A stretch of 64,000 bases of DNA from Amoebophrya sp. A120. Lineage: Eukaryota; Protista; Dinoflagellata. The translations under genes and the position numbers were made by a program. The notes under the pieces were generated by a model. It worked only from the letters and a program-made list of their open reading frames with translations. It ran no database searches and was not told where the DNA came from. Of the stretch, positions 86-53,525 are shown piece after piece (position 1 is the stretch's first letter; the number at the start of each line of letters is the position of its first letter). The stretch is taken from positions 8,401,599 through 8,465,598 of the forward strand of contig CAJINV010000001.1 in the NCBI GenBank assembly GCA_905178155.1, read 5' to 3'.

Positions 86-1861
86 TCATGCGTGTTTCTG
101 TTTTCCATAAATAATCTTTAGAATTTTTCTTTGCCATGTAGAGCAAGTTTCCGTTGCTGAAGTTCCAACAGATGTGCAAGTAACTGTAACACATTTTTTC
201 ATCCTGGATACGATGTCATCGAACGAGAGTATCAAAGGCCGGATGAGATCGTAAAGCAGAGTCCCGAAGTGCTTGATCAGACCGTCAAGCGAGTCCTGCG
301 GGTGTCGCGCGTCGAAGTAGGCCAGGAAAGTTTGTTTCTCTAAAATACAGAGTTTCAACACGTAGGTGGAGATCTGTCGGATGCAGGCGCTGGGGTCTTC
401 TTGGAAGTTCACCATCACGTTTTGCATGTGCTGCTGCAAGGGACCGGACACCAAGCGAATGCGCATCTGCACGAAAAAGTTTTCCAGCTCGTCCAGCGCC
501 TGGCCGTAGATGTCCGCGCCGTCGCGTCTGCGGTAGAGCTGCTGCGCCAGCGGCTTCATGTGGGTCGCCGCAGCGCGGAACCGCACGTAGAAAACTGACG
601 TCTCGTACCTGTAGTTGTTATTTGAGAGAACGACTCGAATTCCGATTGGAACAAGTCTTGTACTAGCGGCCAGGGGCCCAGGGGCCAGGGGAGAAGTTTT
701 CTCGATTTTATTCATCAATCACAATGAACAAATTCTTTCTCCTCTTCTTCCCGATACCCGCTTTTCCCGCCCGCCGCGGACTCGACTTGTTCCAAAACCT
801 GCTCTAGTGTCCGCTCCAAGTTCCTACAGACCTGCGTCTTGAGCATCTGGCACGCACGGCGGCGCATTTGGTCGTAGTCGCGCAGATACTGCTTCGAGTC
901 GTAGTACTCCGGATGCCTTTCCAGAAACGCTATGCCGTCGTCCAACGCATCCAAACACCGCTCGAATTCGTCCGTCGGAGCCGAGTGGGGGCCGCGGTCG
1001 AGGATCCGCTGCAGGTCCACCACACGGTCGAACTTCTCCAGCCTCTCGCTGATCGACTTCGTGTACTCTTCCAGGACGTGTTGTTCTTTCAACAAGTGTT
1101 CGCACTGGTGGTGTAGCACGTCGTATCCAGTGTAGAAACGGACCCACCCCAATTCTGCATGCCCAGTATAATGTGTGTCATGCGGCACTCCATGAAGATG
1201 AGAGGCAGTTTCTAGTGATGCTTGGAACAAATCTGTCGTGCGCTAAACAGGTCAAGACAGTGGATTTGTATTTATGCGTTTGAATTAGCTAGACACGACT
1301 ACACTGCATAACCAAGTTTGTCATACGTGAGCCGGACAAGTTCTTCACGATTTGTCTTGCAAAACTTCCATCTTGACTCTGGGATGGGGACGTTTTTACA
1401 CAGGATACGTCGCATTTGTGCGAGACTTCGCGCCGAAAATGCTCCACCTGCTCCAATTTTTCAAAAGCGAGCGCAAGGGAATCGCAGACCTGAGAGGCGA
1501 ATAAGGAGGATGAGTATGTTAGAGAACTTTAGAACATTGGTCTGCTTCTTGTGGAACTGCGCCCTACGTGCAGCTGAGGAGGTCTCACAGCATTTACAAC
1601 AAGAACAGCATGCCAGGCAAAAATCATCGAATGAAGCCGCACCTCGTGACAAAGTTGCTGGTGGTGGAAAATCCAGCCCCAGTTCGTCAGATAGGCCAGC
1701 GACTCCGTTTCCTCTTCGTATTGCCGCTCCATTTTCTGGAAGAACCGGTAAAAGTCCTCCTCCTTTACCGGTTTGGAACTTGAGGAAGAGGACGACGCCG
1801 TCGCCACCATGGCTGAAACATCCTCCAGCAGTGCCTGCTGCCTCTGCGTCAGGTTCGCCAT
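86..1861 (-). CDS. COG3: Conserved oligomeric Golgi complex subunit 3 (Sec34), multi-exon, 3' end unresolved or off-window
   Basis: Spliced translation gives EVSHKCDVLHHQCEHLLKEQ, LDALDDGIAFLERHPEYYDSKQYL, FYVRFR and GTLLYDLIRPLI, matching COG3/Sec34 motifs. GT-AG introns at 1490-1642 and about 609-757, plus an introner at 1124-1407. Confidence 0.85.
1124..1407. mobile_element. Introner (family B TIR), non-canonical intron in COG3
   Basis: Starts TATCCAGTGTAGAAACG and ends CGTTTTTACACAGGATA. Perfect TSD CGTCG at 1119-1123 and 1408-1412. Removal of element +5 bp gives HKCDVLHH in frame. Same family as 5401-5680, opposite orientation. Confidence 0.9.
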
Positions 1862-2648: not shown

Positions 2649-5600
2649 CTAGAATTCCATGGGCGCATCTAAGCCAGTTCCGTGAAGTAGTTGCTCTTCC
2701 CGCGCGAACTGCAGGTAGTTCTCCTGATCCAAGTATTTCGAGATGTTCACGTCCTCGGCTAGGCCCTTTCTTCTGCGCGTCTTCAGCATGAATTCCCGTG
2801 CCAGGTGCGGTATGGGTGCGGGCTCCAGCGGGCGCAGGAGAATGGACCGGTCCAGAGGATCGCCGGGTACCTGGGACCAGTGGTCGAACCAGGTGACCAC
2901 CATGGCTTGCCCGTTGCAGTGCGACCGCAAATCGGTTTCGAACCCGAACGACTCGATGACCGGCAGGTAGGCCTCCACGATGTACAAGGGGGAGCCTGGT
3001 TTCGGGAAATCTCGGGCGACGTGCCCCCTCCTCCGCGACAGAACGGTGTACACGCCCTGCACTGAGTCGGCCGGACAAGTGACTTCCGCAAAAAACACCG
3101 GCTCCATCATGCGTGGCGCAGCCATCAGAAAGGCGGCGTAGCTGCACCGTCTGGCGCACGGAATTAACTGACCGCCGCCGCGCATCTGCGGGTTCTCGTG
3201 CAGTCTCGCGTCCAGAAGCTTCCACTTCACACCCCGGATCGCCTCGTCGCATAGTGGACCTGATATTACGTTTTTTATGAAGATCGCGCCCGGAGGGCGA
3301 TATTGGTAACCAAATGCGTGCGCGAAAATCTAACCAGCGCGAAAGCCAAACCAGCCGCGCCACGAAAGCGCGGCCCTGCGGGCCGCGCTTTCGCCGCGCG
3401 GCTGCCACCACCATTTCTTTTTAATATAGAATCCCACTTCTTCGCCATTTATCGCGGGCCATCGGGGGCATCCGGATTCGCATTCAAAGCTTATCGCAGG
3501 AGCCTGCGGGCCGCCGCGGGCTCCACCACTTCCCCGCGGCCCTAAAGGGCCGCGGACAACTACTGTCGCCCGCGGCGGCCCGCAGGCTCCTGCGATAAGC
3601 ATTGNNNNNNNNNNNNNNNNNNNNNNNNNNNNNNNNNNNNNNNNNNNNNNNNNNNNNNNNNNNNNNNNNNNNNNNNNNNNNNNNNNNNNNNNNNNNNNNN
3701 NNNNNNNNNNNNNNNNNNNNNNNNNNNNNNNNNNNNNNNNNNNNNNNNNNNNNNNNNNNNNNNNNNNNNNNNNNNNNNNNNNNNNNNNNNNNNNNNNNNN
3801 NNNNNNNNNNNNNNNNNNNNNNNNNNNNNNNNNNNNNNNNNNNNNNNNNNNNNNNNNNNNNNNNNNNNNNNNNNNNNNNNNNNNNNNNNNNNNNNNNNNN
3901 NNNNNNNNNNNNNNNNNNNNNNNNNNNNNNNNNNNNNNNNNNNNNNNNNNNNNNNNNNNNNNNNNNNNNNNNNNNNNNNNNNNNNNNNNNNNNNNNNNNN
4001 NNNNNNNNNNNNNNNNNNNNNNNNNNNNNNNNNNNNNNNNNNNNNNNNNNNNNNNNNNNNNNNNNNNNNNNNNNNNNNNNNNNNNNNNNNNNNNNNNNNN
4101 NNNNNNNNNNNNNNNNNNNNNNNNNNNNNNNNNNNNNNNNNNNNNNNNNNNNNNNNNNNNNNNNNNNNNNNNNNNNNNNNNNNNNNNNNNNNNNNNNNNN
4201 NNNNNNNNNNNNNNNNNNNNNNNNNNNNNNNNNNNNNNNNNNNNNNNNNNNNNNNNNNNNNNNNNNNNNNNNNNNNNNNNNNNNNNNNNNNNNNNNNNNN
4301 NNNNNNNNNNNNNNNNNNNNNNNNNNNNNNNNNNNNNNNNNNNNNNNNNNNNNNNNNNNNNNNNNNNNNNNNNNNNNNNNNNNNNNNNNNNNNNNNNNNN
4401 NNNNNNNNNNNNNNNNNNNNNNNNNNNNNNNNNNNNNNNNNNNNNNNNGACCTTCACGCCTCCCGGCGGTTGCCCTATATGGTAACGGCAACTGCCTTCG
4501 CGCTGCGTTTGCTAAGCAATATCGCAAGCGCGCAGAGCGCGCGCGCCGGCTTCGTGGGCCGGCGCGTTTGGTTACCAGATCACCAGAAGTTTTGGAAATG
4601 CAGGAGCTATTCACGCATGCAATTTCCACGTTGCACATGGTCGCGTGCTTCTAAGCACATAGAGCACACACGGCCCTCTAGTACTGTCGCATTGCTTCTA
4701 GCAACGGATAAGTGCATCTGCATCTTGACCTACTTCGTGCTCTTACCCGGCTTCGGCTATTAGTATATACAGCTGAAACTGATTACTTTACCTTCTCGAC
4801 TTGCCCACTGGAACCCCTGCACGATGCTGTCCTTGCAGGTTTGCAGCAGCTGCTTATTCACATCCAGCGTATCGTTCAAGAGCATGTTGCAGCCGCGATC
4901 CGTCGGGCCAAAGCCCCAGATGCCCATGGCCGCGAGCAAATCCCACTGGTGCTCGTTCCGGAAGTAGTCCCGCATTTCCTTGCTGCCGAGCTCCCACGTG
5001 GGCAGGATGCGCCCTCGCTCGATATCGTCGTGCTATTGTGAGGAAAAATGCCCCCTCCCCATATCGAAAGCGAAATTTGTGCTGCTGTATTTGAGTACAC
5101 AAATCGCATTTGTCTTGCTGGAGAGGACTGCAGACCCATATCAAGCCGGAGTAGAGAGGCTTTGACTTAGGCACTTAGCATGAAAAGCGTCCGTGATGTT
5201 GGCTCAACAGCATGACAAACCGCCTCCATAATGGGACGGAAGCTGCTGCCCTTGTCTTCTTGCAACACAAACGTGATTTGTGACCTCAAATCAGCAACAC
5301 AAATTTTCGAAAACCTACTTCCCCAATATGGGGAGGGGGGATTTTTCCTTGCGATACGTGCACGGGTTTCTCCAGCGGGTCGCAGGTCATGAAGAGCTTG
5401 TATCCTGAGTAAAAACGTACCCACACCAGAGTCAAGATGGGGAATCGGCTAGACAAATCCACAAGCTTTGGCTGTTTTGCATGACAAATTTGGATTCGTA
5501 GCGTAGTGCTGTTTGAGCTAGCTCAGCAGCATCACAGATCTAGCATACCATGCTGATTGGAGCATGACAAATTGCAAAACATGACTAGAAAATGCTTCTC

Positions 5601-8600
5601 ATGGAGCTCCGCATGAGAAACATTTTCAGCATGCAGATTTGCATTACAACTCTGGTGTGGGTACGTTTTTACTCAGGATAGCTTGTTCTGTTTGTTCATG
5701 CTGTCGGCCTGGCATTTCATGCTACTGGTTTCGGACACTGTTTCTTGGAAGGACACGATGGGGTCGGAAACCTTGATTTCCAGATCGCCGTAGAGTCGTC
5801 GTAAGTCGTGCAATACGCAGTCCAGGTAGAGCTCGCCCGTGCCTGTAGAAAAGTCACAATTTCAATTTCATCTCACATTACGTTGGCAATAAGGCGTGGT
5901 GTTCTGATGAACCAGAAGGAGCGAATGAATGGAAATGGATTCAAGTGCCCTACGTAAAGAAACAAATTTTTCCATATAGTCAATACAGTTCTGTTGTATC
6001 TCTACCTTGTATGACGTGTTCTCCGCTTTCCTCTACTTTCGTGTAGCAGATTGGGTAACTCTTGTCGATTTTTCTCAACCCCGCGACCATCTTTGGCAAC
6101 TCGGAAGGATTCAGTGGCTCCAGTGCGATTTTGCAGCAGGGGGTCGTGCTGTGCGCCAGGGGACGGAAGATTTCGATTTCTTCTTCGATGTCCTGACTTG
6201 TGATAGTGCTGGTCTTCACGATCGTGCCGTCGACGCCCCCAATCAGGACCCAGTTTCCGGCAGGCACGTGCGAAATCTCGACTCGATATCGGCCCTGCGA
6301 GATCCAGAGCGACTGCGCCACGCGGTTCGACCGGTCTTCATCGTCAGACAGCGAGTAGTTCTCACCCAGGACTTGCACGCGGTCGCCCTGTTTTTGATGA
6401 ATATTTATTCAGCGTTAGATCATGGTAGGCCGGATCAGGTGTACTCAGTCTGATACATAGATATCTATGTAGAGAAACGAAAATCATGTAGTTGTCCTGT
6501 CGTACAACGATACCGTATGCAGCGTTCCGCTCATCACCCTCCCCAGCACATCGAAAGTGCTCAGATCTGGGTGGTGGTAGCACTTGACTGTGTGCACCAC
6601 GAGCTCTCCCTTGGGGTCCAGTGCGAGCATGTCTGTCGCGACTTTCCCGGTCTGGTCTCCTGTGTACGTCCTGTGCACCTTCAACTCGGCCATCGTGCGC
6701 GGGTTTCGGATGTGCTTCACCACCGCATCCACCAGGGCGCTGTTCCCCTGGAAGAAGTGCTTGCCGACGGATTTCAGCATGTTCTTCGTGGACATCTTGA
6801 AGTCGCGCTTGGGCATGTAAATCCCGACGGATTCGTAGATCGGAATCAGCGTTTCCTTTTCTTCCCCCAGCGTGTGGCCGATCAGTTTGTACAGCGGCTC
6901 CAGGATAAACGCGACGAATGTTCGCACCGGGTCCTCGAAGTCCTCCGGTGGCTCGCGGGCGAACTTCCGCGTCTCCTCATTGAAGTAAATGTCGCCCCAA
7001 AGGAGCGGCGCGAATTCTTTCCGGTCGAAGCTGTTACCGTACGTGTCGGCGTAGCTGTTTTTGATTTATTCTTGGGAATCCACATTTACTTACATAGATT
7101 ATAGCAAATACACATCGAAACCTCTCCTCAAGTAGGCTTCACCTTCAAAAAGGTTCCCATAAGAAACTACGCACAAAGTCGAATAGTAAGCTAGTAGCAA
7201 ATTCAATACATGGACGCGAAGCTGCCCAGAGAAAAGACGAAGTTGAAGAGGCCCGCGGCGAAAATGACGTTGCCCTTCGTTGGGGATAAAATCTTGCGCT
7301 GCGCCGGCACGTTCAGCATGGTGTGGATGTTTTCCAGGCAGGTGTTCACCTCGTCAATGGTGTGCTTGATTTTGTGGTAGGCGTCCGCCGGCGGGAGCTT
7401 CAACTCCGTGACCAACCGGTCGATTTTGTTCACGCACAAAACCACATCCAGTCCCTCCTGCACGACGTGCTTCAGGAGCCGCTCGTCGTGCGCGCCGACC
7501 CCCATGACCACGTCCACGACGAACAGAACCCCGTCCGAAATGCGCACGCCGGCCACCACCTCGTCTTGGAAGTTCGGGTGGCCCGGGGTGTCCATCAAAT
7601 TGCACAGGTAGGTCTTGTCCGTGCCGTCGGGCAACAAGAGCGAGATCGGGCTCGCTTTGATGCTCAATCCGCGTTCTGCTTCGTCCCTTCTCGAATCCAA
7701 AAACCGCATCGATTCCTGCTGCTTCGCCTGGCTGTCCTTCAGCTTCGTAGACTTAAATTCGTGGGTCTCGCGGATGGCGCAATCCACCAGCGTGGTCTTG
7801 CCGCTCTGCAAATGCCCAACAACCGCAATGTTGCGGATCAGCTCGGGCTCCTGCATAATGCCCGCCATGTAGTCGAACTTGAACGACGTGTCCGGAATCT
7901 GATTTTCATACGAATAAATTTGCACGTGGAGAATGCCGGTGTAGCAGGAGGTGAAAAATCAGTACATTTCGAAAATCAAAGGTCAAGCAGGGTATTTAAA
8001 CATCAACAAGCAGCACTAGCACACTACTGGACTAAAACTTCTCCTGTTCCGCCCACTAGTCAGAAAACTTTCCCTTATCCATACCTGCTTCTCGATGAGG
8101 TCGAAGTCGAACACCCGTGCTGGCGGGATGATTGGCTCCGTGATCGGCATGGTATCCTCTTCCTGTACCAACACCACCGCTTCCGGGCCGTATATCTCCT
8201 CCGCCTCTGGGTAGTACTGCTTGTCTTCGTGGAGCACCACCGCTCGTTTCTCTGGTGGCAGGTCCGGGATCACCGGATTCACCGCGGCCGCGGCCGAAGC
8301 CGCCTCGTCCATGCCGGAGGCGGCGTAGCCCCCGCCCGGCATGGTGCTGCCCACATCGACATCATCGTCCAGGTCCTCGTCGTATCAAATGCAAAAATGT
8401 CTGGGTCTGGAAGAATGCAACTTGTCATGCTAGATCTGAAGCATGCAAAAATCTGTGTTGCATGATTACCAAAAGTCGTCCAGTTTTGACCAAGTCGGGA
8501 GGGAGTTTCTCATGCAGGATAGGCATGAAAGAGATCGCACAGAATCTGTCATGTTAGGCCCTGCATTCCAGACCTCATGGGTCATGGAAAACCTGCGTGA

Positions 8601-8711
8601 CAAATCTCGCAATCTTCCAGACCCAGACATTTTTGCATTTGATACGTCGCTGTCGTCCGACAAGTCGCCGCCGATGTAGTTTCCGAACTCGTCGTACGCG
8701 GATTCGTCCAT
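2649..8711 (-). CDS. EFTUD2: U5 snRNP 116 kDa GTPase (Snu114), about 9 exons
   Basis: [15 protein letters not shown]-terminus; [16 protein letters not shown]; [11 protein letters not shown]; NKIDRL; [20 protein letters not shown]; RGGGQLIP; [10 protein letters not shown]; [16 protein letters not shown]. All are diagnostic of Snu114. Confidence 0.97.
3489..3600. repeat. Perfect 33-bp inverted repeat with nested hairpins
   Basis: GCTTATCGCAGGAGCCTGCGGGCCGCCGCGGGC (3489-3521) and its reverse complement (3568-3600). The loop contains CCGCGGCCCT-AA-AGGGCCGCGG. Confidence 0.9.
3605..4448. other. Assembly gap
   Basis: Run of N. Confidence 1.
5034..5356. mobile_element. Introner (family C TIR) in EFTUD2
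   Basis: TATTGTGAGGAAAAATGCCCCCTCCCCATAT...ATATGGGGAGGGGGGATTTTTCCTTGCGATA. Perfect TSD CGTGC. Removal restores EKPVHDDIERG. Confidence 0.9.
5401..5680. mobile_element. Introner (family B TIR) in EFTUD2
   Basis: Perfect 32-bp TIR TATCCTGAGTAAAAACGTACCCACACCAGAGT. Perfect TSD GCTTG. Removal restores [15 protein letters not shown], which aligns with Snu114 NKKNKITMIAEPLEK. Confidence 0.95.
8383..8644. mobile_element. Introner (family A TIR) in EFTUD2
   Basis: Perfect 32-bp TIR TATCAAATGCAAAAATGTCTGGGTCTGGAAGA. Perfect TSD CGTCG. Contains an in-frame stop. Removal gives [12 protein letters not shown]. Confidence 0.95.
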
Positions 8712-23258: not shown

Positions 23259-23264
23259 GGAAAC

Positions 23265-23525: not shown

Positions 23526-23602
23526 CTCGAAAAATATTCTGACCAGGAAATATTTCGCAACAACCTTCCAGAGCAACCGACTCCCCCGCTTTTGCAGCTT
23601 TG

Positions 23603-24205
23603 AAAGCGGGAAGCACGGGCAAAGCGGGAAGCACGGGCAAAGCGGGAAGCACGGGGGAAGCGGGAGGCACGGGGAAAGCGGGACGCACGGGGAAAGCGGG
23701 ACGCACGGGGAAAACGGAAAGCACGGGGAAAGCGGGAAGCACGGGGAAGGCGGGAAGCACGGGGAAAGCGGGAAGCATGGGGAAACAAAACGGGAAGCAC
23801 GGGGAAAACGGGAAGCACGGAGAAAGCGCGAAGCACGGAGAAAGCGCGAAGCACGGGGAAGGCGGGAAGCGCGGGGAAAGCGGGAAGCATGGGGAAAGCG
23901 GGAAGCACGGGGAAAGCAGGAAGCATGGGGAAAGCGGAAAGCACGGGGAAAGCGGGAAGCATGGGGAAGGCGGGAAGCATGGGGAAAGTGGGAAGCACGG
24001 GGAAGGCGGGAAGCACGGGGAAGGCGGGAAACACGGGGAAGGCGGGAAGCACGGGTAAGGCGGGAAGCACGGGGAAAGCGGGAAGCACAGAGAAAGCACG
24101 GAGAAGGCGGGTAGCACGGGGAGGGCGGAAGGCACGGGGATAGCGGGAAGCACGGGAAAGGCGGGAAGCACGGGGAAAGCGGGAAGCCCGGGAAAAGCGG
24201 GACAC
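23603..24205 (+). repeat. 18-bp purine-rich minisatellite, about 33 copies
   Basis: Unit GGGGAAAGCGGGAAGCAC with point variants. Confidence 0.95.
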
Positions 24206-34572: not shown

Positions 34573-35189
34573 GATATTCTGGGCCTTTGCAATGCACTAG
34601 AAAGAACTTGTGAAAAAACGGCGGTCTCTTCTGTCCTCAAGAAATTGAGTAGAGGGGAAGCTGATGTGAACTTGGAAGTGCTACGCTGCCATCATGCACA
34701 GCGCCTGCCCCTTTTTGCTACCCTCATCTTCAATAAATTCATCAAACGCCACTGTGCATTCGTTTCCCATAATCCGAAAAAAGCGGGGATCGGGAAATGA
34801 GCGGACGTAACAAACGGAACGAGGATGATGCTCATGGATCGATTCGGTTTCACACGGAGATCCTGCATCAAGCGCCAACCTCGATGTTGATCTGAGCACA
34901 ACACGATCACGAAGCCTGTAGATCTTCATCGGGACAACAGCTTTCCTGACCGTCTGAGTTTACAGACCGAGGACCTCCCAAAAATAGATATCAGGATCAG
35001 AAAGAGCATCGGAAAACGTTCCATGGGTGTCACAGTCATCGGCTGTGTAACAACACCACCACGACGTGGAACACCGCGATGTTGACAATCTCTACCAAGT
35101 AAAATTTGCGCACTGTCATCGCAGTTACATAGCTTTTGCTTCCTTGAAACATAAGTACCCTCGCGAGACTGTTGAGTGCGCGCGGCGTA

Positions 35190-37983
35190 TCAAGATGACC
35201 TGGCATTTGTTCTTCTTCCTGCGCATTTCGAAATGACTTTTTCATACTGTCGCACAGTTTCCTCTGCGGCCTCCTGCCAGCTGAAGAACAAACTTCCGCG
35301 AGCGCTGAGCCGCTCGCGCACATTCCGCACGGAAACGCGGTTGTCCGTCCCCAGGCGATTTAGGATCCGCACCAGGTCCGGCTCATCCCGGAACATCACG
35401 TCGCATCCGCTCGGCCCCAGCACCTGTTCGTAAAATTCCGCAAAGACCGGCGACTGCAAGGGAAGAAGAGGGAGCAAGTCGCACCCGAGGGCCTCGATGA
35501 CCGTGATTCCGAACGTTTCGCTTTCGGAGCACGTGAGAAAAAAATCACTCTCCCGGTAAAAAAGCTCCGGCAAAAGGTCGTTCGGGATGGCACCGCAAAA
35601 GGTCACATTGATGTCGCTTATCGACGCACTTGTTGTACTACTAGCGCCCCGTTTCGGACTTGCCGGGTTCGCTCCCTTCAATGGCGACGAGGATTCGCGC
35701 CCGCTCGACGCTGCCTTTGTGTTTTTCGCCGGAGATGCCGCAAGAATCTTGCCTGCGCCAGCGGACGCGGCTTTCGCTTTCGGCGACGACGTTGAAACAG
35801 GTACAACCCCGTTCGTCAGCTTCTTCCACTCGGCAAGCCCGTCCGGCCTTTCGTCCTCGCCGTGTACGAACTTGTGTATTCGTGCACTGGCAGCTTCCAG
35901 TGTTTTTTGCACCAGTGAGCTTTCCTGCTTCTCTGCCCCAGGCGACGACTTGTAGCAGGCTACAGCCAACTCTTCCAACTCCTTTCGCTTCGGCCCGTCA
36001 CCGCAAATAACCAAGTGAAAGCGGTCGCGAAAACGGCTGACCACCCGAATCGCGGTGTCCACATGCTTCTCCGGAGCCAGGCGGTTTACCATCAGCAGAA
36101 TCTTCCGCTGATTCGGGATCTGGAGAATCTTCCGCAGCTTCACTCCCGATTGCTTCGACGATGCTGCGCGCGAGGGCGACGATTTCGATGGGCTTTTTGG
36201 AATCGCATTCGGGTTCGTCCCACTCGCTTTTATTCCAGCATTCACAGTAGAACTCGATGCTGACGAGGAATTTTTTCCCAAGCCGCCGCCCCAGGGAATA
36301 CCAGCAGGAAAAGCGGGTTTTGGAGATTTACTGCCTGAACTGTCCTGCTTTGTTGACTTCGTTCCAGCTTTCGGCGGGGATCCATTTGCTCGGCTGTTCC
36401 CCCGCAAAACCAGGCTGCTCGTTGTTCCCCGGGATGGAGATGAAGCCGTGGTCGTTCTCGAGACTTGCGCAGGCGACGAAGAACCGCCGCGGCCCCGTTT
36501 TTCCGTGGGGGAAGACGAACTCGCGGTGGTTGTCTTACTCGTACTCGGACTTCTAGTGCCATCCGAAAACCTCGAGGGCACTGCAGTCGGAATCACCATG
36601 TAATTCCTCTGCGAATACGGACCCTGGCTGGAAGACATGCAGCGAAACATCTTCTTCTGGATGCAGTTGCCGGCTAGAGAACGGCCGCAAGAGGCGGCCA
36701 GACTGCTCAAGAAAGAAAAACACCCAAAAGATGATGTAGTAGGAGCTGCACTGCTTGTGATGTCCGATTCAGCTTCTCTTCTCTCGCTGCTCTCTGCGTC
36801 GCCGAACAGTTCCGGCGGCCTTGGGTCATTCGGTTGCAGTTTTGTTGTCGTATAGCTGGAAAAACAACGCTTGTCTAGGAAGCTGAACTATGAACTGCAA
36901 AAGTATCGTACTCGAATAAATGCATTACAAATTTTCTCAGCATGAGAAAGAAAATTTGTAAATGCTGATTTGCCTTGACAAAGATATTTGTAATGCAAGA
37001 CCTGCATTTATACGAGTACGATACTTTTGCACAGCATATGAACTCCTTCTGCATGGCGGCGAGCGATGGCGCTACGTTGGCGTCGCCGCAGAGGTATGGA
37101 TTGCAAAAGTGTCTGGGTCTGGAAGAATGCAACTTGTGATGCGCATTTCAGAACACAGAAAAATCTCTCATGCATAGGTAGCAAAAGCCGCCCACTTTCT
37201 GTCACCAAAGTGGGGGATTTGTCATGCGGATTCGGCATTGCGGAAGCTTCTCGAAACCTGTGATGCTAGAGCTTCCATGCCAGACCTTGTGTGTCATGCA
37301 AAAACAGCATGAATCTTCCAGACCCAGACATTTTTACATTTGATAAGAGAGCTGCCGGAACGCGGCCGGAGAGCGAGTAGGAATAGTCTGCGAAGGCGGA
37401 AAAGCAGCCGCTTGGCATGTAGGAGTTTACGTAATACACCATGTCTACGTGGTGACTCACATAGGTCGGCACACCGAGGAAGCGCGCACGAGTTAGGACC
37501 TATTTGTTGATGTTGCTTTCTGAATGTAGACCTCACAACTGCCTGCGCATAGTCATGCACTTGGTCGTTCTCGTTGCATATTCAGAAATAAAACATCATC
37601 CTCGAGACTCGAAAAATTGTCAGAAACTGCTATAATACCGCCAATGCCACCGCGGAGGGTAGGAAGATGTGGACGATGTCGGGTTCGAACGTGCGCATGG
37701 CTTGAAACAGATTCCAGCCCGGAAAGAGGCAAATCTGGTTTCCCTGGTTCCAGTAGTTGGTGATACACAGCCCCATCTTTCGGTAGATGCCGTCTGGGTT
37801 CCCTATTTGCGCCTCGTGTCTCAACTCCATATAACCCTCGGCCTCCAGCTCCTCTGCGCTTTTACAGGTGTAGACTTGCAATTCATGCCCGAGCTTTGCC
37901 ATCTCCAGAACCATGTTGCGCACATGAAGCGCGATACCGTGCACCTCCGTCGGTGAGTAGTCAGACACGATGAGAACGCGCAT
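35190..37983 (-). CDS. Glycosyltransferase family 4 (GT-B; glycolipid synthase/SQD2-like)
   Basis: MRVLIVSDYSPTEVHGIA, PDIVHI, VNRLAPEKHVD, ICGDGPKRKELE and SESETFGITVIEALGC (EX7E motif). Confidence 0.9.
36889..37038. mobile_element. Introner (family D TIR, 150 bp) in GT4 gene
   Basis: TATGAACTGCAAAAGTATCGTACTCGAATAAATGCA...TGCATTTATACGAGTACGATACTTTTGCACAGCATA. Perfect TSD TGAAC. Removal gives KEFSFLDK. Confidence 0.9.
37095..37345. mobile_element. Introner (family A) in GT4 gene
   Basis: TATGGATTGCAAAAGTGTCTGGGTCTGGAAGA...TCTTCCAGACCCAGACATTTTTACATTTGATA. TSD AGAGG/AGAGA. Removal gives PAALCGDAN. Confidence 0.92.
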
Positions 37984-38977
37984 TTTGGAAAAAAAACTAC
38001 TCAATCAATATCAATCACACATCATTCCAATACGTTTTGCTTGCGTCACGACAAGGTCTGGTGAAAAGTATACTATCAAATTTGAGTTTGACGTGCAGTA
38101 GCCCGCAGACCAATCATAAATTCAACTGCTTCCAAGTAGATATGTGAATCGCAGCCCGCCCGCAAGTCTTGCTGTTTATTTCGCTCTCCGCTATTCTATC
38201 GCGACCACAATCCCGAGGCTTCGTCGGCCACACCCAAACTGAAAATTCCAATGACCCACAATTTGATCAGTTATCTATCAAAAAAAATGCGATGCCAAAA
38301 AAAAAAACTGCAGTAACGAATTAGGACCGACGCATCGACTGTGCGAAGAACTTTGCGTCTGTTACTGTTCTGCGTTCACATGATGATCCACGGATCTCAG
38401 TTTTCATGACTTGAAATTTTATCACGATCACTCTTCCATAGCTGCTCAGGCGAAGCAGCTTGGCAAAGAAAGTTCATTTTTTCCAATTTTTCTCACACCT
38501 ATCATCACCCTCATCCCCCACAGGCACGCACTACTTCCCCGTGGTATTTAGTTTAGGATTCACAAATGTGCGCGAAAGAAGCGAAGCGAAAGACATCTAG
38601 AAATAGAATGCTGATAAGACAAAATTGAAATAAATTCAATAGCGCAATAAAGAAGAAAGTGGAAGAAAGAAAGCATTGAGAAAAAAAACCGCTCACAGTC
38701 ACGTGAATCCAAAGACGCCAAGCCACTCACAAGTTTTTTACAATATCATCACAGTTTGCATCTAAAAAATACGTAGCTTTCATCGTTTTATTTCGGAAAC
38801 AAAAATGAAACGCAATTACTACACAGTGTACTAGGCAAGACGGTCCACAAAAAGCACAGCAGGGGCTTCCAATCTTTCCGTGCAGGAGCGAACCGCCGAA
38901 ACAAAAACTACAACTCTCGCTTCCACCGCACGTCAAGGCTGCACTCAGGCGTAGAGCTCCTGGTGTTTTTTTTTTGA

Positions 38978-41900
38978 TCAAGTTACATAATCCGATTTGT
39001 TTGCCCCTTCAGCATGATGGCACCAGCAGGCCGCTAGTCTGAAACTATAACTACCTTTCTTGTTCACATCAAAACACAGAATTAGTACCGCAGCCTCGCT
39101 CTCCCTTCTCAGTTGCTGGAAGCAGGCCTCTGCGGTTTGTGGAAACGAAGAATTGCTTGCGGACGGGGACCCCTGCTCCTCGTATCCCTTGGGCCCTCCG
39201 ACCTGCTGCGCCGTCTGGTCCCGGAGAAGTGTGGTGCCGGCAACAGCGCCGCCCGCCGTACTGGCACAGTCGTTGTACTGCGAATTCGGATAACCTAGGC
39301 TTGTCGCGGTCGACGTCCCCATCTGCGACGAGTTTTGTTGATGCTGCTGATCGAGGTACGGGGAGCCCTGCTGGATTTGCTGTTGCGGTGGACCTGCGGC
39401 TCCACCCAGAGGTGGCTGGTACTGCAGGACCGGCACGCCATTCAAGGCCGGCGTTCCCGTCACCTGCGGCGGATGGTGCTGTTGTAGTTCTGTTCCGACA
39501 GCAGCCCCCGGAGACTGTTGGTACTGCAAGTTTTGTTGCAGCTGTTGCTGGTCCAAGTACTGTGGCGGCTGCTGCGGACCTCCGATCTGCGGACCACTTG
39601 GACTTCCCAACGGTTGCTGCAAAGCGTGCTGTAGCTGCTGCTGCCCCGGCGTCATGCCCTGGTGTTGTAACTGCTGCTCGTTATTGTTGTACGCCGGATT
39701 GTTGTTCATATTCGTTGTTCCACCTAACTGCTCTGCTCCTATCGGCATCTGCGACCCCGGCGGGCCACCCCCTCCGAGCGGCTGCGCCGTGTTGTACGTT
39801 GCTTGCGGGAACAACTGTTCCCCGAGCGTTTGCGGCTGCACTTGATTCTGGTTCGTGGTGTACAAGAGTTGGTTGTCAAGCGGCTGCAGATTCGGACTTT
39901 GGTTCGCAGCCACGAACTGCTGATTTTGCGGATCGACCGGAAGCAGCTGCTGCGGCATGGGCCCCCCGGGAAGATGCATCGGGTCCTGCGGACCAGCGGC
40001 AGAGCTTGCTCCAGGAAACTGCTGCATGTTTGGCCCATTGTCCGGACCACCCGCGTAGTGGTCTAACGGCTGCTGCTGCGCAGGCTGCTGCTGCGGCGGT
40101 CCTGCTACGCCCATCTGGTCATTCCGCTGGTCCCACGCAGCAGCCTGGTTCGTTCCCTTGTTGCCGTAGTTATACTGCTGGTCGTTGTTGTAACTGTTGC
40201 CCTTACCGTTGTGGTACTTGTCTTTCCCGCTGCCTTTGTAGTTGTAATGATGTCCACCCTTACCGCCCCCGCCGTGGTAGTCTTTATCGCCCTTGTATGA
40301 ACTGTTGTAACTACCGTTGTCGCCTTTATACAACGAGCCGCCGTAGTTGTAATTCTTCCCCTTGCCATACGAAGAACTACCGTAGTGGTCACTCTTTCCG
40401 CCCTGATACCCCCCGCCACCGCCTTTGTTGCTGTACCCGTACGCAGGAGACCGCCCGCCATAGTCATTGCTGTAGCCGCCACCTTTGTGCTGTCCGCCAC
40501 CGTAACTGCACCCCCCTTTGTGCGCACCCTTGTTGTAGGAACCTTCTTCTTCTACCGAGCCGCTGCGATCGAACGAGGTGTCGCCATTGTAGCTGCCGTC
40601 GTTGTAATAATTGTTGCTTTTCCCGCCGCCGTAGGAATCGAAGTTTTGCTTTCCGTACCCGTAACCCTTTTTCCCACCGCCATACTTGTCCTTCGAAAGC
40701 GCACCCTTCTCCTTCCCCGACTTCTCGCCCAAGTATTCATACGAAATTTGAATTTCCCGGACGCGTATAATGATGCGGTTTCTGCATGACAGACCTTTAT
40801 TCCGTTCTTTCATCCTTCAACCCTATTCAGCATGACAAGAGGCGTGAACTTCTAAGTTGGCGAAATTTCAAATGCGTTCTTTTGTACGTGTACGGGAATA
40901 AAGCTGTATCGCATACCCAGCCCTCACCGTAGATGAAGCCGGTGGAGCCGCCCTTAACTTCTTCGAAAGTGAAATGGTCCTTGCCCAGCACGTATGCATT
41001 GCAAACGTTTCTGGGTCTGGAAGACTCATGCTGTTTTTGCATGACACAGAAGGCCCGGCATGGAAGCTCTAGCGTCACAGGTTTCCAGAAGCTTCCGCAA
41101 TGCCGAATCCGCATGACAAGTGCCCCACTTTGGTGACAGAAAGTGGGCAACTTTTGCTGCCTAAGCATGAGAGATTTTTCTGTGTTCTGAAATGCGCATC
41201 ACAAGTTTGCATTCTTCCAGACCGAGACATATTTGCAGTTCATAGCATGTACCCGATGGAATGGCCCTTGTCTCCCTTCTTACCCTTGCCGTAGCCTTTT
41301 TCTGTTTTGGTGAGTCATTGGAGAACACTTTTCTCGAGAAACGGGAACACAAAGGACCACGTCCTCAAAGTTAAGTAGTTGATAGCTGGGGCTGTTCCTG
41401 TTGTTACACAGCGAAGAGCAAGAATTTTGAAGATTAGATGCACAAACTACATCGCAAATCCAATACTTCCCTTCCCGCCGCCTCCCTTGCCCTTCTCGCC
41501 GTCGTCATGCGGCTTGTACTGGCCGATGGTGAGAATCGAAGCGAAGAGCTCGTTCTGGTACTTGTGGTCCAAGCAGCTATCAATCAGGTCCTCTTGCCAC
41601 TTACCTGTTTAGAACATTTTGGTGATGAAGAGTGCGTATCAATTTGTGATCCAGAAAACGACGTCCTCGCACCATGCGATCTGATGATTGAAAATGCATG
41701 TTGCGCGATTTCTGCACGTCGAGAGCTGCTTACCACTGGGGTGCGGCAAAATTCCGAACTCGTGGGGGTGCCCGAAGACCATGGTGGTAGTCCAGCTGAT
41801 GCTGCGAACGTGGAAGATATTGCCTGGAATATTACATATGTTGCATTTATCTTTATGATCTTCCGGATGCAAATGCGAAAAATAAGCATAACGACATGTA

Positions 41901-42548
41901 CAACTACAAAGGTGGTGGTCATCTTCGTCCTGCAGAAACATCACAAACAACAGAATATGAATAAATATTCCTGTCAATAAAAAGCTCACAGTGCTCGACA
42001 GTTCCGAACTTCTTCAGAATGCCGTCCCGCAAGTCCTCCACCCACAAGTCCCATCGCGAAAAAACCCCGCGCCAAAAATCCTGCGCAGCCACGATCTGCT
42101 CCGGTGTGGAAAAACTGTACGGACCCTGATTTTTATGTGTTGGGAACCAAATAAACACGACGCTGTGCAGACAAACGAAAACTTCACCTTCTTCGTTCCG
42201 ACCTCGCTAAAAAAATCGGAATAATTTATAGATGCGCCTCCGCCTTCAAATAAAACTGACACACTTCGACGTTCGATTTTCATCAGCGCAGCTGTTTATA
42301 GTGTACAACCCCTTTACAAAAAAAATCAACCCCCTTAGTACCACTTGCACTCGTCGGTCGAACCGGAACCCCGGTAAGGTGCCCAACGCCGAGGCGATCA
42401 GTGGCACGTAGACCCAGCTTTGCGTTTTGGGGATCTTCCCGCCGAAGATCCGAATTTTCACGTCCTGTTCCTCGAAGCCAGGCACAGAAACCCAGGGCAG
42501 GTCCCGTAGCGACTCCAGGCCTCCGCCGACTCCGCCTCCGCCGGCCAT
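38978..42548 (-). CDS. Hypothetical protein with long G/Y/K/N-rich and Q/P-rich low-complexity C-terminus, multi-exon
   Basis: 611-codon ORF plus upstream exons joined in frame through two introners (GYMLGKDHF, GEGWGEKS). Linkage of the 5'-most exons is inferred. Confidence 0.65.
40734..40915. mobile_element. Degenerate introner
   Basis: TAT...ATA ends, TSD CCAAG/CCCAG, weak TIR and two GCATGACA motifs. Removal of element +5 bp restores frame. Confidence 0.65.
40993..41244. mobile_element. Introner (family A), opposite orientation to 37095-37345
   Basis: TATGCATTGCAAACGTTTCTGGGTCTGGAAGA...TCTTCCAGACCGAGACATATTTGCAGTTCATA. TSD GCACG/GCATG. Interior is a near reverse complement of the 37095 copy. 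Confidence 0.92.
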
Positions 42549-43189
42549 GGCGTGCTGTGCGTCCTGTCGTCCCTAGAAGCAGACAAGGACAGCGACAACA
42601 CGATTCGAAAAAAATTACTCCGTCAAAGACGTTCCATCGCGACAGAGGCCGAGAACTCTGGTTTGGAATGTGACAACGAAGAAGAAACGAGCGCAACACC
42701 GCGGAAAGGGACGAACAAACAGACCAATATGATACTTATTAATTCTTTGCCGATGCTGGTGCTCTTCACCACAAGAGGTGATGCGGAAACCCTCACTCTT
42801 CTGCCAGAATAGCACCATCGCTCAGAGGAAACTACACGCTGGAAATCAACTTCTCTGAAACAGGTCCCTCTGCTTTCCAAGTGAGTCCACAACACTCAGT
42901 CAGTGGGAGGAAAAACCTTATCTTCGAAAATGGAATCTCAACGTCTCTCCACGGTTGTAGATGTCTACTTCTTGACTCACCCCCTTCCAGATTAAGTAAA
43001 CCACACGACTCCTTCTATAGACATGCTGCGGAGAACATCCAAACCAGCCGCTCGCACCAAACGGACACGACGGAAGACACTCCGTAAAAATTGCTTGCGC
43101 TCGCTCTGCTGCAGACAGAACGAAATGAACTCGAAACCGGAACCACGCTTGCCGGAAACTACGACAATTCGAAATAATCATACACACAG

Positions 43190-46100
43190 CTAGTCATCTT
43201 CCGATTCACTGCTGCTTGCCACGAGCTTCTCCCCCTCGGGCAGACCGGATGCAAGGATCGCGTCAAGCTCGTCCTCCTCTTGCTCTAGCTCGCCTATGCC
43301 GCTGCCAACGTCGTTTATCTGACATATCTCCACGTCGTAGTATACCTGGTTGATGAGGGATTTTTTGCTTGGGATAGTACCCGTGTATCTTATACCCGGT
43401 TGAGGGATTTTTTGGTTTGGTATGAATTCCGCGCCCGGTCGGGCGATACGGTAATCAATCGTTGCGCTGTTCACTTTGCGAAGAAAAAACCGCGACGCGC
43501 GCATTCCGGCGGCCGCGCCCGCGCGAAAACGGGAGGCGCAAACTATTCGGGCGCCAGAGAGGAACGAGCCCAAGGCGCTGCAAAGAGTGGAACGGATCAA
43601 GGGCGCCCCTTTGAGGGGCGGGTCGGGCTGCGCGCGGGTGATCGCGCGAGAATCCAAAAATTTTGGCGCGCCATACCGTCGCGCCTAATGTTACCCCGCA
43701 CGGTATGGCGGGCGCGTGATTTTTGCTCATTTTCGTGTGGGCTTTTTTTGGTTCATTTCTTGCATTTTTGCGGAGGGCGCTTTTGCACCTCAAACGCGAT
43801 GGCATTCGGCTTGATCAGGCGGAGGCCTCCGTCCCGAAAATGGCAAAACGTTACACCTCTAAACACGACTATACGCTGACTAAGCTTTCAGCGTGCCGCC
43901 GTGTTTGGCGGCCTGACAAATTTCGGATTGAGCGCAAGGCCCATTACAAATGGGCGATTTTTTTTCATTTTTTCATTTTTTTCTTGCGAAAGACGACGCT
44001 ACTGCGGACCCACGGAGGGTCCAATTTCGCTACTTTTTCGCAAGCGTACCGGGGGGATTCGCGACACAAAAAAACTCTCATTTTCCGGATACCAATGCGC
44101 CTATGGACGCAAAAATCACCATTTTTACACCTTCCCCCGGTGGGAGGCTGCGTTTTTGGCGCACCTTTTGGCCGCCCACGCGGCCGACCCCGGTTCCAGC
44201 TTAGCAGGCCCTTCCCCCGAAGCTACTGCCCCACTTTGGGGGGCGCCCCTTTGTTCCATCTAGATCCCCCGTAAGGTAATCCGCCGTCGCTTCCTTGCTT
44301 CGCAAATGGGAAGCGGCTTCGCCGGGCCCGGGGGGGCGGGGGGGCTTCCGCCCCCCCGGGCCCGGCTCACCCGAACGCAACGATTGATTACCGATAATAC
44401 CTGGTTGAGGGATACCCGTGTTTTATTTGAACACGCAAAATGGAGAACCAGAAGTGGCGGCACAAATGGTGAAGAAACTCGGGGTTGCCGGCAGGCAAAG
44501 ACAAATACGAGTACCCGCGTGTTGGGTGGTATTACTATCCCGGCGCCCCTGGACCCGTAGGCGTAGAAAGGGGACACGGATATTTCTGCTTTCTCGTGCA
44601 GGGACAAGCCTAGCACGCCCTCGTCGAGGCCGCGAACCACCTCGCCGTTCCCAACCACAAACTCGAAGGACTCTTTTCTCTCCCTCGTATCGTCGACCGT
44701 CTTCCAGTTTTTCTTCCCCTTGATTTTCTCCTCCGCGGTGAGGTCGACGTAGCGCAGGGTGTAGTGTATTCGGATGGTGTCCTATCAAGCAAAAAAACAC
44801 CATCACAATCACATCTAGGAGGTTTTGCATCAGAAATTTCTCTCGCATGACAAATTTTTGTTGTATTGCAAAAACACAAAGGGAAATCATCAATAAGTCT
44901 TGACTGTGATGCATTTTTGCGCATGACAAAAAATTTTGTATTGCAAAAATGTGCAAGAGTGATTGTGATGGTGTTTTTTTCTTGAATATGTCCCCCTTTT
45001 CCACGATGCAGTCCGGGTCCTTGTCCCGGCCTCGAACAATCTTGGTGACCACGATGTTGTCCAGCACTTCCTCCTATCAAATGCAGATATGTCTCGGTCT
45101 GGAAGATTTCTAGATTTGTCATGCTAAACAGAAGTGCGACACACTTTGCCTCCCCCTGTGCAAACGGCCGCAGATGGCTGTCACGCAGGGAAGGTGGGTC
45201 AGGCGGACACCGAAGTGCCATCGCCATCATCTCCCGGCCACTATACCAACTCGCCAACTATACCAACTTTTTTGCCTCACTTTCGCCAACAACGCCAACG
45301 ATTCCTACTCGCGACACATATAGAAAGCACAACCAGGACACCAGCAACAAGGATACTGGACCCTGCAGCACGGCTTTCATGTTAATCTATGGATAAATCA
45401 CATACGCCAAAAACATAGAAGAGAGTCAGAGGCGCTGTTTAGCTTCATCCAATGATAGGCGAGAAGCGGGCGTCGATGTGAAGAGCCCAGGCGGAGCTCT
45501 GGCGTGTCCTAGCAGCCGGTCTCTCCGCCGCGCCGGTCGTTCCTCCTACCACTTCGCTGGCTGCCGCCGCTGGGGCAAATACTTGGGGCCGAGGAATTTG
45601 CAGCAACACTTCTGGTCGTTGAGTGCCCCTACACATCTGGTCGTTGCGTGCTACGGGAGTAGGCCACACGTTGGGCCTACTGCTGAAAACTCCTCTAGCC
45701 CTGCCGCATTTGAGGAGACTCCTGCCGTTCCTTTCCACTCTGTGGCTCGCGATCCGTGCGCGCCTTCCGGCTGGCTTAAATGAATAGGCGCGCGGCTGCT
45801 CCAGCCCGCTGCCCCGGAGGTCATGATTTCGGAGTTGGTGTTTGGCGCTTCTATGTAGAAGCTAGCTCCTGCTACGAGGACGAAATTGAAAGTAAACAAG
45901 GACAAAGAAGATGGAGATACAGAAAGAAAAGAGAAGGAAACGGGTTCTAGATTTGTCATGCATATTTCCCATGACCCATGATGTCTGTGATGCATGCCGT
46001 GGCATTACAGATTTTTAGAGCGCTTTGTGATACCTCTACAGCATAAGAAATGCCCTCTCCGCGTGGCACAAACTGGAGTCCCCTTGCTGGTCATGCAATA

Positions 46101-46232
46101 CAAATTCTTTCAGAATCCAGAGACAGCATCACAAGTTTAGAATGTTCCAGACCCAGACACTTTTGCAATTCATACCTCCTCCTCACTGGAGACATCGAAA
46201 TCATCCACGACGAAGTCTTTGTAATTAGCCAT
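43190..46232 (-). CDS. FKBP-type peptidyl-prolyl cis-trans isomerase, 4 exons
   Basis: Spliced: MANYKDF...VEKGDTIRIHYT...FEFVVGNGEVVRGLDEGVLGLSLHEKAEISVSPFYAYGSRGAGIVIPPNTRVYYDVEI. Confidence 0.92.
43421..44393 (-). mobile_element. Helentron/HINE-like or MITE element in FKBP intron 43346-44514
   Basis: Perfect 18-bp IR CGGTAATCAATCGTTGCG (43449-43466 and 44376-44393). External hairpin CGCCCGGTCGGGCG and an internal ~19-bp GC hairpin at 44321-44366. Confidence 0.7.
44783..44988. mobile_element. Introner (family E TIR) in FKBP
   Basis: TATCAAGCAAAAAAACACCATCACAATCAC...GTGATTGTGATGGTGTTTTTTTTCTTGAATA. Perfect TSD TGTCC. Removal gives KGDTIRI. Confidence 0.92.
45075..46174. mobile_element. Introner (family A) in FKBP carrying a nested insertion
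   Basis: Family A TIRs at both ends and perfect TSD CCTCC. Length is 1100 bp, or 263 bp after removing the nested insert plus one 17-bp repeat. Confidence 0.9.
45125..45944. mobile_element. 820-bp insertion flanked by a 17-bp TSD
   Basis: TTCTAGATTTGTCATGC at 45108-45124 and 45945-45961, with a purine-rich right end. Confidence 0.8.
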
Positions 46233-47225
46233 TTTTGTTGACGTGCAAAAAACCTGATAGGATGAAGAACAAAAGTACTAGAAACGCAAACTGTATTCTC
46301 AATCTCAAGCAACTTCAACTACTACACTCTCTTCGGGCGGCACTCGAAACATCAAGTGCGTGGTTAACACCAAACGATAACGAGCAAGCTAGCTACCAGT
46401 ACCACACTATCGAGTTGGTGATTCGGAAATTGGAAAATAGTTCACCTGCGCACGAAACAAAGCACAGTTGCCGAACAGCATCGTTGAGGAGGTAAGAGTT
46501 GGCATTTTTATTTTTGCGCTGTGAACGATACAAGCTGTTAACTGCGATTCTTTCTCTTCTACTTGGTAGAGTAAAACCTCACTGGTACTCGGTCGGCGCT
46601 TCAAAAAAACATAAGGTAGTCACTTTGAATGTCGAGTCTCATATAATCCGAGCACACTCCTAGTTTTGTTCTTATGCACTTATTGTCAGTCACGGATAGG
46701 CGATGCGGCTCAACAGGGCGAAAACTGAGATCTAACCAAGCACTCTCATCTCGTCTTCCGGGCTGTCTGTGGGCTTCGAAGTGGTAGAGGGCAGCACTTA
46801 CTCTACTTTATTGCGAACAGTTCTGCAGATAAGGGACTCTCCTGTGCATCATGGCTTTTGCTCCATCCAGCACTATGCCATGCAGTAGGCCGCAGCCGAC
46901 TTCTTTTTTATCTTCGCAGCAAGTTTCATGCTCAGCCGATCCCTTGCGTTGCCACCCCGTGCTCGGCCGGTCGCGCCGGCGCGGCACGTCTTCCGTTCTT
47001 GTCTTTCTTGTCAGCAGGAACTTGCAACTACCTGGTCCGCAGATCATGCTGAGGCGGTCGGGGTAAGTTGTTTTGAAGCGAAGACTTTTGCACACAATCC
47101 ACGACCCCACGTCACCAGAACCGCGATTGTATTCCTCACTGGTGGTTGCCGGGACTTTGTGCCAAGAAGTTCTTACCGTCAGTGCGCCATGAACAACCGC
47201 GTTGGTCACTACAACAAGCTTGCCC

Positions 47226-52900: not shown

Positions 52901-53525
52901 GCTTGTATTCGTCGTACGTGAGCCAGGTGTACTTGTTCTCCAGCTCCAACTTTTCAAATTCCTTGCCACCCGGGGTGTCTGCGACCATGGTATGCATTGC
53001 AAATATGTCTGGGTCTGGAAGGGTGGTGGAACTTGTGATCCTGTCTGCGGATTCTAAAAATATGTGTGTTGCATGAGCAGCTAGAGGAGTCCAGTTCTTG
53101 GCCTGCGGAGAGGGCATTCTTCCTGCGTGATAAGCATTACTTAAGCACCCCTCAAAAAACCTGTGATGCTAAGACCTGCGTCACAGACCCCACAGGTCAC
53201 GCAACACGTGCATGACAAACCACGACTCTTCCAGACCCAGACATATTTGCAATCCATACATGTGCGTTTTGATCAACTTCCGGTACCCCGCGCACTTGTC
53301 CTTTCCGCCCCGCTTGCAGCCACTGACAAACACCTCCACCACCGACTTTTCCCCGGTTGGCAGGGTCTTCTTGATGGCAAACGTCCCATCCGCCTTGCGA
53401 TTCTGGGCGTGGTAGAGAATGGGCCCGTACCCCTCCGGCTTGTTGTTCGTTTTCTCGTCGAACAGGCCCCAAGGCGGCGGGCTCTGGGGCATGTCCTCCA
53501 CGGGGAGGGAGGCGCTCACGCCCAT
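49910..53525 (-). CDS. Long-chain acyl-CoA synthetase (ACSL3/4-like), multi-exon
   Basis: AVIMYTSG|TTGAPKGV, LPMAHIMEL, SGSAPL, YGLTET, PRGEILIGGP and WFRTGDIG...IIDRKKDL. Confidence 0.95.
52991..53258. mobile_element. Introner (family A) in acyl-CoA synthetase
   Basis: TATGCATTGCAAATATGTCTGGGTCTGGAAG...CTTCCAGACCCAGACATATTTGCAATCCATA. TSD CATGG/CATGT. Removal gives KTHMVADTPG. Confidence 0.93.

What the first reader, a model, noticed from the sequence alone, without database searches (positions are those of the whole stretch)
37095..41244. Same introner inserted in both orientations in same-strand genes
The interior of 37095-37345 is the near reverse complement of 40993-41244 (for example GATGCGCATTTCAGAACACAGAAAAATCTCTCATGC). 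The pairs 52991/45075 and 1124/5401 are also opposite. All host genes are on the minus strand. Removal therefore cannot rely on a single oriented branch point or pyrimidine tract, which favours symmetric, structure-based recognition and DNA transposition over reverse splicing.
Basis: partly seen in the sequence, partly recalled or inferred. Interest (0 to 1): 0.7.

Follow-up and report, generated by a model that had tools for sequence, protein, structure and literature searches.

The report
Two-way transposon introns without GT-AG
A short repeated element with inverted-repeat ends sits in both directions inside genes that all run the same way, and it is cut out of the RNA exactly in either direction, likely because both of its ends carry the same signal; introns of this kind are already described in the marine parasite Amoebophrya.

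Summary
Observation confirmed. 37095-37345 and 40993-41244 are 92% identical in opposite orientation; 52991/45075 and 1124/5401 are also opposed; host genes are minus-strand. Spliced contigs (four runs, one sample) skip both copies by exactly element plus 5 nt. In 144 related loci, 77 strand-called family copies split 34:43 by orientation, duplications are 5 nt, and only 15 of 205 elements could be GT/GC-AG. They match the published Amoebophrya A120 introner signature (TAT-N7-AAA ends, 5-bp direct repeat); two-way introners are already reported in Polarella and Aureococcus. DNA-level insertion is supported. Tests for RNA-level pairing found nothing (G-U 157, A-C 172). Added here: no orientation bias, no AG selection, and cuts placed by transcript direction (0-2 nt before TAT and 3-5 nt after ATA if one register holds), resembling Euglena nonconventional introns. 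The scan noted similar hairpin-bounded introns in other genomes.

The parts
37095..37345 (.). Family-A TAT...ATA element, 251 nt, orientation '+' of the family; duplication 37090-37094 / 37346-37350 (4 of 5 alike); in a minus-strand glycosyltransferase gene
   Evidence: (joint 37089>37346, 256 nt)
40993..41244 (.). Family-A element, 252 nt, opposite orientation; duplication 40988-40992 / 41245-41249 (4 of 5 alike); in a minus-strand gene of no Pfam family
   Evidence: (joint 40986>41244, 257 nt)
45075..46174 (.). Family-A element, opposite orientation, 1100 nt with a nested 820-nt insert (45125-45944); perfect 5-nt duplication; in an FKBP-type isomerase gene; can also be read GT-AG
   Evidence: (joint 45069>46175, 1105 nt)
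52991..53258 (.). Family-A element, 268 nt, orientation '+'; duplication 4 of 5; removal inferred from frame, no joint seen
8383..8644 (.). Family-A element, 262 nt, orientation '+', perfect inverted repeat over the first 25 nt and perfect duplication; in the EFTUD2/Snu114 gene; removal inferred from frame
1124..1407 (.). TAT...ATA element, 284 nt, distantly related and opposed to 5401-5680; in a COG3 gene; removal inferred
5401..5680 (.). TAT...ATA element, 280 nt, 32-nt perfect inverted repeat; between the GTPase and EFG_C exons of the EFTUD2/Snu114 gene; removal inferred
5034..5356 (.). TAT...ATA element of another family, 323 nt, perfect 5-nt duplication; removal inferred
36889..37038 (.). 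TAT...ATA element of a 150-nt family, spliced out
   Evidence: (joint 36883>37039, 155 nt)
44783..44988 (.). TAT...ATA element, 206 nt, spliced out
   Evidence: joint 44777>44989, 211 nt
40734..40915 (.). Degenerate TAT...ATA element, 182 nt, duplication 4 of 5, weak end pairing, still spliced out exactly; fixes the cut at 3 or more nt past ATA
   Evidence: (joint 40728>40916, 187 nt)
35134..37996 (-). Host gene of the 37095 copy: GT4-type glycosyltransferase, 751-codon frame after splicing
38492..42658 (-). Host gene of the 40993 copy: 792-codon frame after splicing, Gly/Lys/Tyr- and Gln/Pro-rich, no Pfam hit in the exons scanned

Best explanation
These are short inverted-repeat elements with a 5-nt target duplication that lie in both directions in coding exons and are removed from the RNA exactly, likely spread as non-autonomous DNA transposons and likely recognised only at their two look-alike ends. 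Shown: both orientations, exact removal of element plus 5 nt, no GT/AG requirement, and retention of the transcript-upstream duplication copy in the three informative joints. Inferred: a transposase or integrase elsewhere in the genome makes a 5-nt staggered cut with no strand preference; the removal machinery reads the TAT(C/G)...AAA end motif, which the inverted repeat supplies at the start and (as its complement) at the end of the intron in either direction, likely helped by the terminal stem, and cuts at a set distance, 0-2 nt before TAT and 3-5 nt after ATA. Because those two distances add up to the 5-nt duplication, the original message is restored at any target, so the element is nearly harmless wherever it lands.
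For: Opposite interiors. Joints of element+5 nt for six elements in four contig runs; the DNA-like run X5 carries the element ends joined to their flanks and the canonical introns unspliced (table 8). Duplication length 5: identity 0.93 against 0.24-0.31 for other lengths, 224 elements. Orientation against host strand 34:43 in family A (p 0.36), 13:14, 13:10, 8:11 in the next three families; same-family pairs in one locus 10 opposed, 9 alike; no conflict in 1793 family-A edges. Removing element+5 keeps one open frame in 153 of 198 cases against 17-18 for other lengths, 28 of 36 and 27 of 43 by orientation (p 0.22). Only 15 of 205 can be GT/GC-AG in any exact register, antisense control 12; AG at the 'acceptor' place 21 against 22.7 expected. 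An end does not differ in sequence whether it starts or ends the intron: 0 of 80 positions at p<0.05 in family A. Both copies fold a terminal stem, z -4.67 and -4.26.
Against: No sign of selection for RNA pairing: end-to-end mismatches are G-U 157, A-C 172; positions 4-7 pair no better than re-dealt ends. The 40734 element is spliced although its whole-intron fold is no better than shuffles (z 0.26) and its end duplex is weaker (-21.7 against -33 to -61 kcal/mol; canonical introns -6 to -13). The register rests on three joints and on assuming one register. The mismatch gradient across the duplication (16,10,7,8,4) is post hoc and loses significance with single mismatches only (p 0.06-0.15). 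No transposase gene was seen among the Pfam hits of the window, and PMC7789003 found none in A120. RNA evidence is contigs of one sample, so efficiency was not measured.
Confidence: 0.65

Rival explanations
1. A relaxed U2-type spliceosome reads ordinary oriented signals that the inverted repeat happens to supply in both directions: N|TAT(C/G) as donor (U at +2, like the GTAT/GTAC donors of canonical introns here), a branch A and U-run in the last 32 nt, and an acceptor set by distance. The stem is a by-product of transposition.
For: At the register 1 nt before TAT every copy has U at +2 and A at +3; five of seven canonical donors start GTAT or GTAC. No G-U excess and no covariation at positions 4-7; the weakly paired 40734 intron has a GT donor at this register and is spliced. 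Polarella class 12 introners use this register with a 5-nt duplication (10.1101/2020.10.14.339549, passage). Most spliceosome parts are present in A120 (PMC7789003 sec. 10).
Against: First and last intron bases are unconstrained: G at +1 in 75 of 205, no different from flanks (p 0.56), AG in 21 of 205. U1 snRNA was not detected (PMC7789003). The seven canonical introns seen end in A-rich or mixed sequence before AG, not in a U-tract.
Confidence: 0.3
2. The elements spread through RNA (reverse splicing, then reverse transcription) and the inverted repeats only serve splicing.
For: No transposase in A120 (PMC7789003 sec. 16); a reverse-transcriptase-like ORF lies at 11512-12258 (RVT_1, E 2.3e-6, below the curated cut-off).
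Against: Reverse splicing into mRNA predicts sense-only copies and no duplication (established reasoning); copies are 34:43 and carry a fixed 5-nt duplication; 13 of the 25 closest family-A pairs are opposed. Insertion of an RNA or cDNA copy into double-stranded DNA by an integrase is not excluded.
Confidence: 0.04
3. The skips are DNA-level (empty-site alleles or assembly artefacts), not splicing.
For: X1-X4 are only guessed to be RNA and are one sample.
Against: The same contigs also skip seven canonical CT..AC introns and read as long open frames; X5 contigs run through those introns and into the element ends.
Confidence: 0.01

Closest known systems
Introner elements (IEs) of Amoebophrya sp. 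A120 (Farhat et al. 2021, PMC7789003; 58 A120 families in Gozashti et al. 2025, PMC12130899)
   Same: Non-canonical borders, inverted repeats starting TAT then seven variable bases then a run of A, 3-5-nt (example 5-bp) direct repeats, mean length about 240 nt, co-oriented host genes, MITE-like origin and hairpin role proposed. Supplement rows list TIR-DNA families of about 250-260 nt with 30-33-nt TIRs.
   Different: No difference in kind found. Element orientation against the host is not discussed in the passages and supplement text I searched; the papers leave the border position unknown, here narrowed to three registers. Sequence identity with a named family was not tested.
Two-way introners of Polarella glacialis and Aureococcus anophagefferens (Roy et al., bioRxiv 10.1101/2020.10.14.339549; Huff et al. 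2016 seen only as cited there)
   Same: [quoted passage not shown]
   Different: Those recruit G(T/C/A) donors and AG acceptors from the duplication or element and are biased to one orientation; here the duplication is unconstrained and no bias is seen.
Nonconventional introns of Euglena (Nomura et al. 2025, PMC12501133; review PMC11282704)
   Same: No GT-AG, inverted repeats at the ends, a short fixed spacer on the 5' side and a longer one on the 3' side (N3-CDG ... CH'G-N5-6|R), suggested MITE origin.
   Different: Other motif (TAT versus CAG), spacer sum 5 versus 8-9, no purine rule at the next exon base here (G+A 122 of 205 at D5, flank-like); pairing and circular products are shown in Euglena, untested here.
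MITE-derived non-canonical introns of Fritillaria borealis (seen through review PMC11282704 only)
   Same: TIR and TSD, non-canonical ends, transposon origin.
   Different: Preferred AG-AC/AG-AT ends and spliceosomal removal reported; no preferred ends here.

Membership tests
Amoebophrya A120-type introner elements | Inverted repeat beginning TAT, seven variable bases, then three or more A | tested here: met
   A at positions 11-13 in 186-197 of 205 at both ends (TAT was required by the finder; one end per locus was required by the search pattern)
Amoebophrya A120-type introner elements | 3-5-nt direct repeat at the borders | tested here: met
   5 nt, identity 0.93 versus 0.24-0.31
Amoebophrya A120-type introner elements | Removed from RNA without GT-AG | tested here: met
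   six joints, five with no GT-AG reading on the gene's strand; 15 of 205 GT/GC-AG-compatible
Amoebophrya A120-type introner elements | Repeated, in families | tested here: met
   13 families among 205 elements, largest 82
Amoebophrya A120-type introner elements | Host is Amoebophrya A120 and the sequence belongs to a catalogued family | not tested
   inferred from the signature only; no genome held; no family sequences compared
MITE / non-autonomous TIR DNA transposon | TIR, fixed-length TSD, short non-coding interior, many copies, either orientation | tested here: met
MITE / non-autonomous TIR DNA transposon | Cognate autonomous element with a transposase | not testable with these tools
   no genome; none among window Pfam hits; none reported in A120 (PMC7789003)
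Aureococcus/Polarella-type spliceosomal introners | Canonical donor and AG acceptor carried or recruited from the TSD | tested here: not met
   no enrichment over antisense control or expectation
Euglena-type nonconventional introns | N3-CDG ... CH'G-N5-6|R signature | tested here: not met
   motif is TAT...ATA, spacers add to 5
Euglena-type nonconventional introns | End pairing needed for removal | tested here: inconclusive
   stems predicted but no G-U excess or covariation at positions 4-7; one weakly paired intron is spliced
Euglena-type nonconventional introns | Excised as full-length circles, no lariat | not testable with these tools
   needs excised-intron sequencing

The most novel reading that the evidence does not exclude
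These introns are removed by a dedicated, spliceosome-independent or heavily rewired ruler mechanism that recognises the transposon's terminal stem and cuts with a stagger matched to the 5-nt duplication: a transposon with a built-in RNA-level undo that works at any target and in either direction, converging on the Euglena nonconventional code in an unrelated lineage.
Probability: 0.3. Interest if true: 0.75.

Novelty: already known. Interest (0 to 1): 0.35.

Why it matters
How Amoebophrya removes tens of thousands of introns without GT-AG is an open question (PMC7789003). Near-identical copies in opposite directions are a natural experiment: they show that the interior carries no needed oriented signal and confine the signal to about 32 nt at each end. 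With no orientation bias and no constraint on the target bases, any insertion into an exon becomes an intron, which would explain the scale of the invasion. The element kind and two-way insertion are both published, so this sharpens a known problem rather than opening a new one.

Tried and rejected
Splicing efficiency by orientation: raw-read runs X9 and X10 did not cover the genes (96 and 4 reads laid, on repeat ends only), and contigs give no level; the run search listed no holder on record as RNA, no evidence either way. Idea that the base after ATA is always C or G (10 of 10 in the window): rejected, 128 of 205 in the larger set, flank-like. Idea of an ATAG/ATAC acceptor one base past the element: refuted for 40993 and 40734 by their joints. 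Direction of duplication mismatches from base spectrum: uninformative. Mismatches extending the stem: 13 versus 10 of 38. Role-specific ends: none in families A, 1, 3; two positions in family 2 (p 0.0005, 0.01 of 80 tests), possibly subfamily structure. Weakly paired candidates with both motifs and a perfect duplication: 6 against 0 in three shifted controls, but chosen by motif, so they cannot separate sequence from structure. The scanner alone was noisy (69 hits, 28 and 36 in controls); the stricter finder gave 268 in loci against 1 in a control. Huff et al. 2016 was not held. The search 'introner + both orientations + inverted repeat' found no paper.
Full report
Observation. The two copies are 92.3% identical over 235 nt in opposite orientation. 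Family A has five copies in the window: 8383, 37095, 52991 one way, 40993 and 45075-46174 the other. Ten elements begin TAT, end ATA and have a 5-nt duplication matching at 4 or 5 bases; an eleventh, degenerate one (40734-40915) showed up through its joint. Host genes are minus-strand: Pfam hits in 12 of 59 minus ORFs and 0 of 52 plus ORFs scanned.

Removal from RNA. Contigs of four runs (X1-X4; one sample; RNA by guess) were laid on 36700-46400. Of 14 joints, seven are canonical introns of minus-strand genes, six skip a TAT...ATA element plus exactly 5 nt (155, 256, 187, 257, 211, 1105 nt), and one joins two repeat copies. The 256-nt and 257-nt skips are the finding's pair, so both directions are removed. 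The spliced genes read as frames of 751, 792 and 200 codons. A DNA-like run carries the introns and element ends in place. Level and efficiency could not be measured.

Where the cuts fall. Where the two duplication copies differ, the joint shows which is kept. In all three such cases the transcript-upstream base is kept: position 1 (37095, family '+'), position 2 (40993, family '-'), position 3 (40734). If one register holds, the 3' cut lies 3-5 nt after ATA and the 5' cut 0-2 nt before TAT. The asymmetry follows the transcript, not the element. PMC7789003 (sec. [quoted passage not shown]

Larger sample. Host strand was called with two models trained on the window (held-out window chunks: 12 of 13 confident calls right; 19 of 21; the two agree on 64 of 65 loci and 12 of 13 same-contig pairs). 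51 of 144 loci got no call and were dropped, as were duplicates and 2 elements with duplication under 3 of 5, leaving 205 (195 from loci, 10 from the window). Results: duplication length 5; orientation 34:43, 13:14, 13:10, 8:11, 9:4, 2:6 in the six largest families, none significant; 10 opposed and 9 alike among same-family pairs in one locus, which needs no strand call; frame kept by element+5 in 153 of 198, equally in both directions; duplication bases like flanks except a slight A/T excess at the centre; 15 of 205 GT/GC-AG-compatible against 12 on the antisense strand.

Mechanism. Inverted repeats, a fixed duplication and no strand bias are what a staggered DNA cut gives (established for TIR transposons and integrases); reverse splicing into mRNA predicts neither. 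The enzyme is unknown. For removal, the interior carries no needed oriented signal, and the 45075 copy tolerates an 820-nt insert 50 nt from its 3' end (this copy could also be GT-AG). Whether sequence or pairing is read is open. For pairing: predicted stems (z -4.67, -4.26; end duplexes -33 to -61 kcal/mol), expected of any inverted repeat; some inner positions pair slightly better than re-dealt ends (position 14: 0.71 against 0.52), which shared descent can explain. Against: G-U 157 versus A-C 172 (low power in young copies), no covariation at positions 4-7, and one weakly paired intron spliced. I favour end-motif recognition with a fixed ruler, likely aided by the stem (0.65), over a relaxed spliceosome reading N|TAT as donor with no role for the stem (0.3); the two overlap.

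Comparison. Papers seen: PMC7789003 (abstract, passages, sections 10-12 and 16, supplement legends) describes this signature for A120 and proposes hairpins and a MITE-like origin; 'orientation' there refers to genes only. 10.1101/2020.10.14.339549 (passages) reports Polarella classes making introns in either orientation, as in Aureococcus, with a bias to one side. PMC9860276 (passages) allows for opposite-orientation insertion in its method. PMC12130899 (passages; supplement files 1-12 searched, 22 of 58 A120 rows read) classes most of those rows as TIR DNA elements with largely non-canonical borders. PMC12501133 (abstract, passages, section 8) gives the Euglena code. PMC11282704 (passages, section 6) reviews the field. 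Six searches showed no paper stating orientation counts for Amoebophrya; the library lacks most subscription papers. The organism is inferred from the signature, not tested.

Verdict. Real, and a known kind of element with a known property. The unbiased orientation, the free target bases and the narrowed register are modest additions that make the mechanism testable. Interest 0.35.

Noticed in passing
family-A ends, window and L001-L144: Positions 4-7 of the inverted repeat come in discrete variants and are only 0.60-0.68 identical between copies whatever the interior identity, even above 90%; ends seem to be swapped or rewritten apart from the interior. Unexplained.
   Followed up: partly
window 45125-45944: 820-nt insert inside the 45075 introner, flanked by a 17-nt duplication (45108-45124, 45945-45961); higher summed depth in the DNA-like run and own contigs in X1-X4 suggest a repeat present elsewhere.
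   Followed up: partly
window 2652-8644: The gene for the spliceosomal GTPase EFTUD2/Snu114 (PF16004, PF00009, PF00679) appears to carry three of these non-canonical introns (5034, 5401, 8383).
   Followed up: partly
window 11357-15746: Minus-strand ORFs with a weak reverse-transcriptase hit at 11512-12258 (RVT_1, E 2.3e-6, below the curated cut-off); possibly a retroelement.
   Followed up: no
window 43343-44511: A 1169-nt GT-AG intron holds a 943-nt stretch (43450-44392) with inverted ends of another type (18 of 20) and a GC-rich hairpin at 44321-44366.
   Followed up: no
RNA runs, at window 37312-37345: A family-A end joined to foreign flanks is abundant in RNA (93 reads in X9; the same flank in X1-X4): some copy elsewhere seems to stay in a transcript.
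   Followed up: no
window 37498-44511: The seven canonical introns mostly end in A-rich sequence before AG rather than a pyrimidine tract, and five start GTAT or GTAC.
   Followed up: no
window 23138-24400: Arrays of 14-, 17- and 18-nt tandem repeats with strong strand skew.
   Followed up: no
window 57417-62324: 1636-codon minus-strand ORF with long low-complexity (Thr-rich by codon pattern) repeats, no Pfam hit.
   Followed up: no
window 3485-3604: 120-nt near-perfect hairpin abutting the N gap at 3605-4448; may be an assembly artefact.
   Followed up: no
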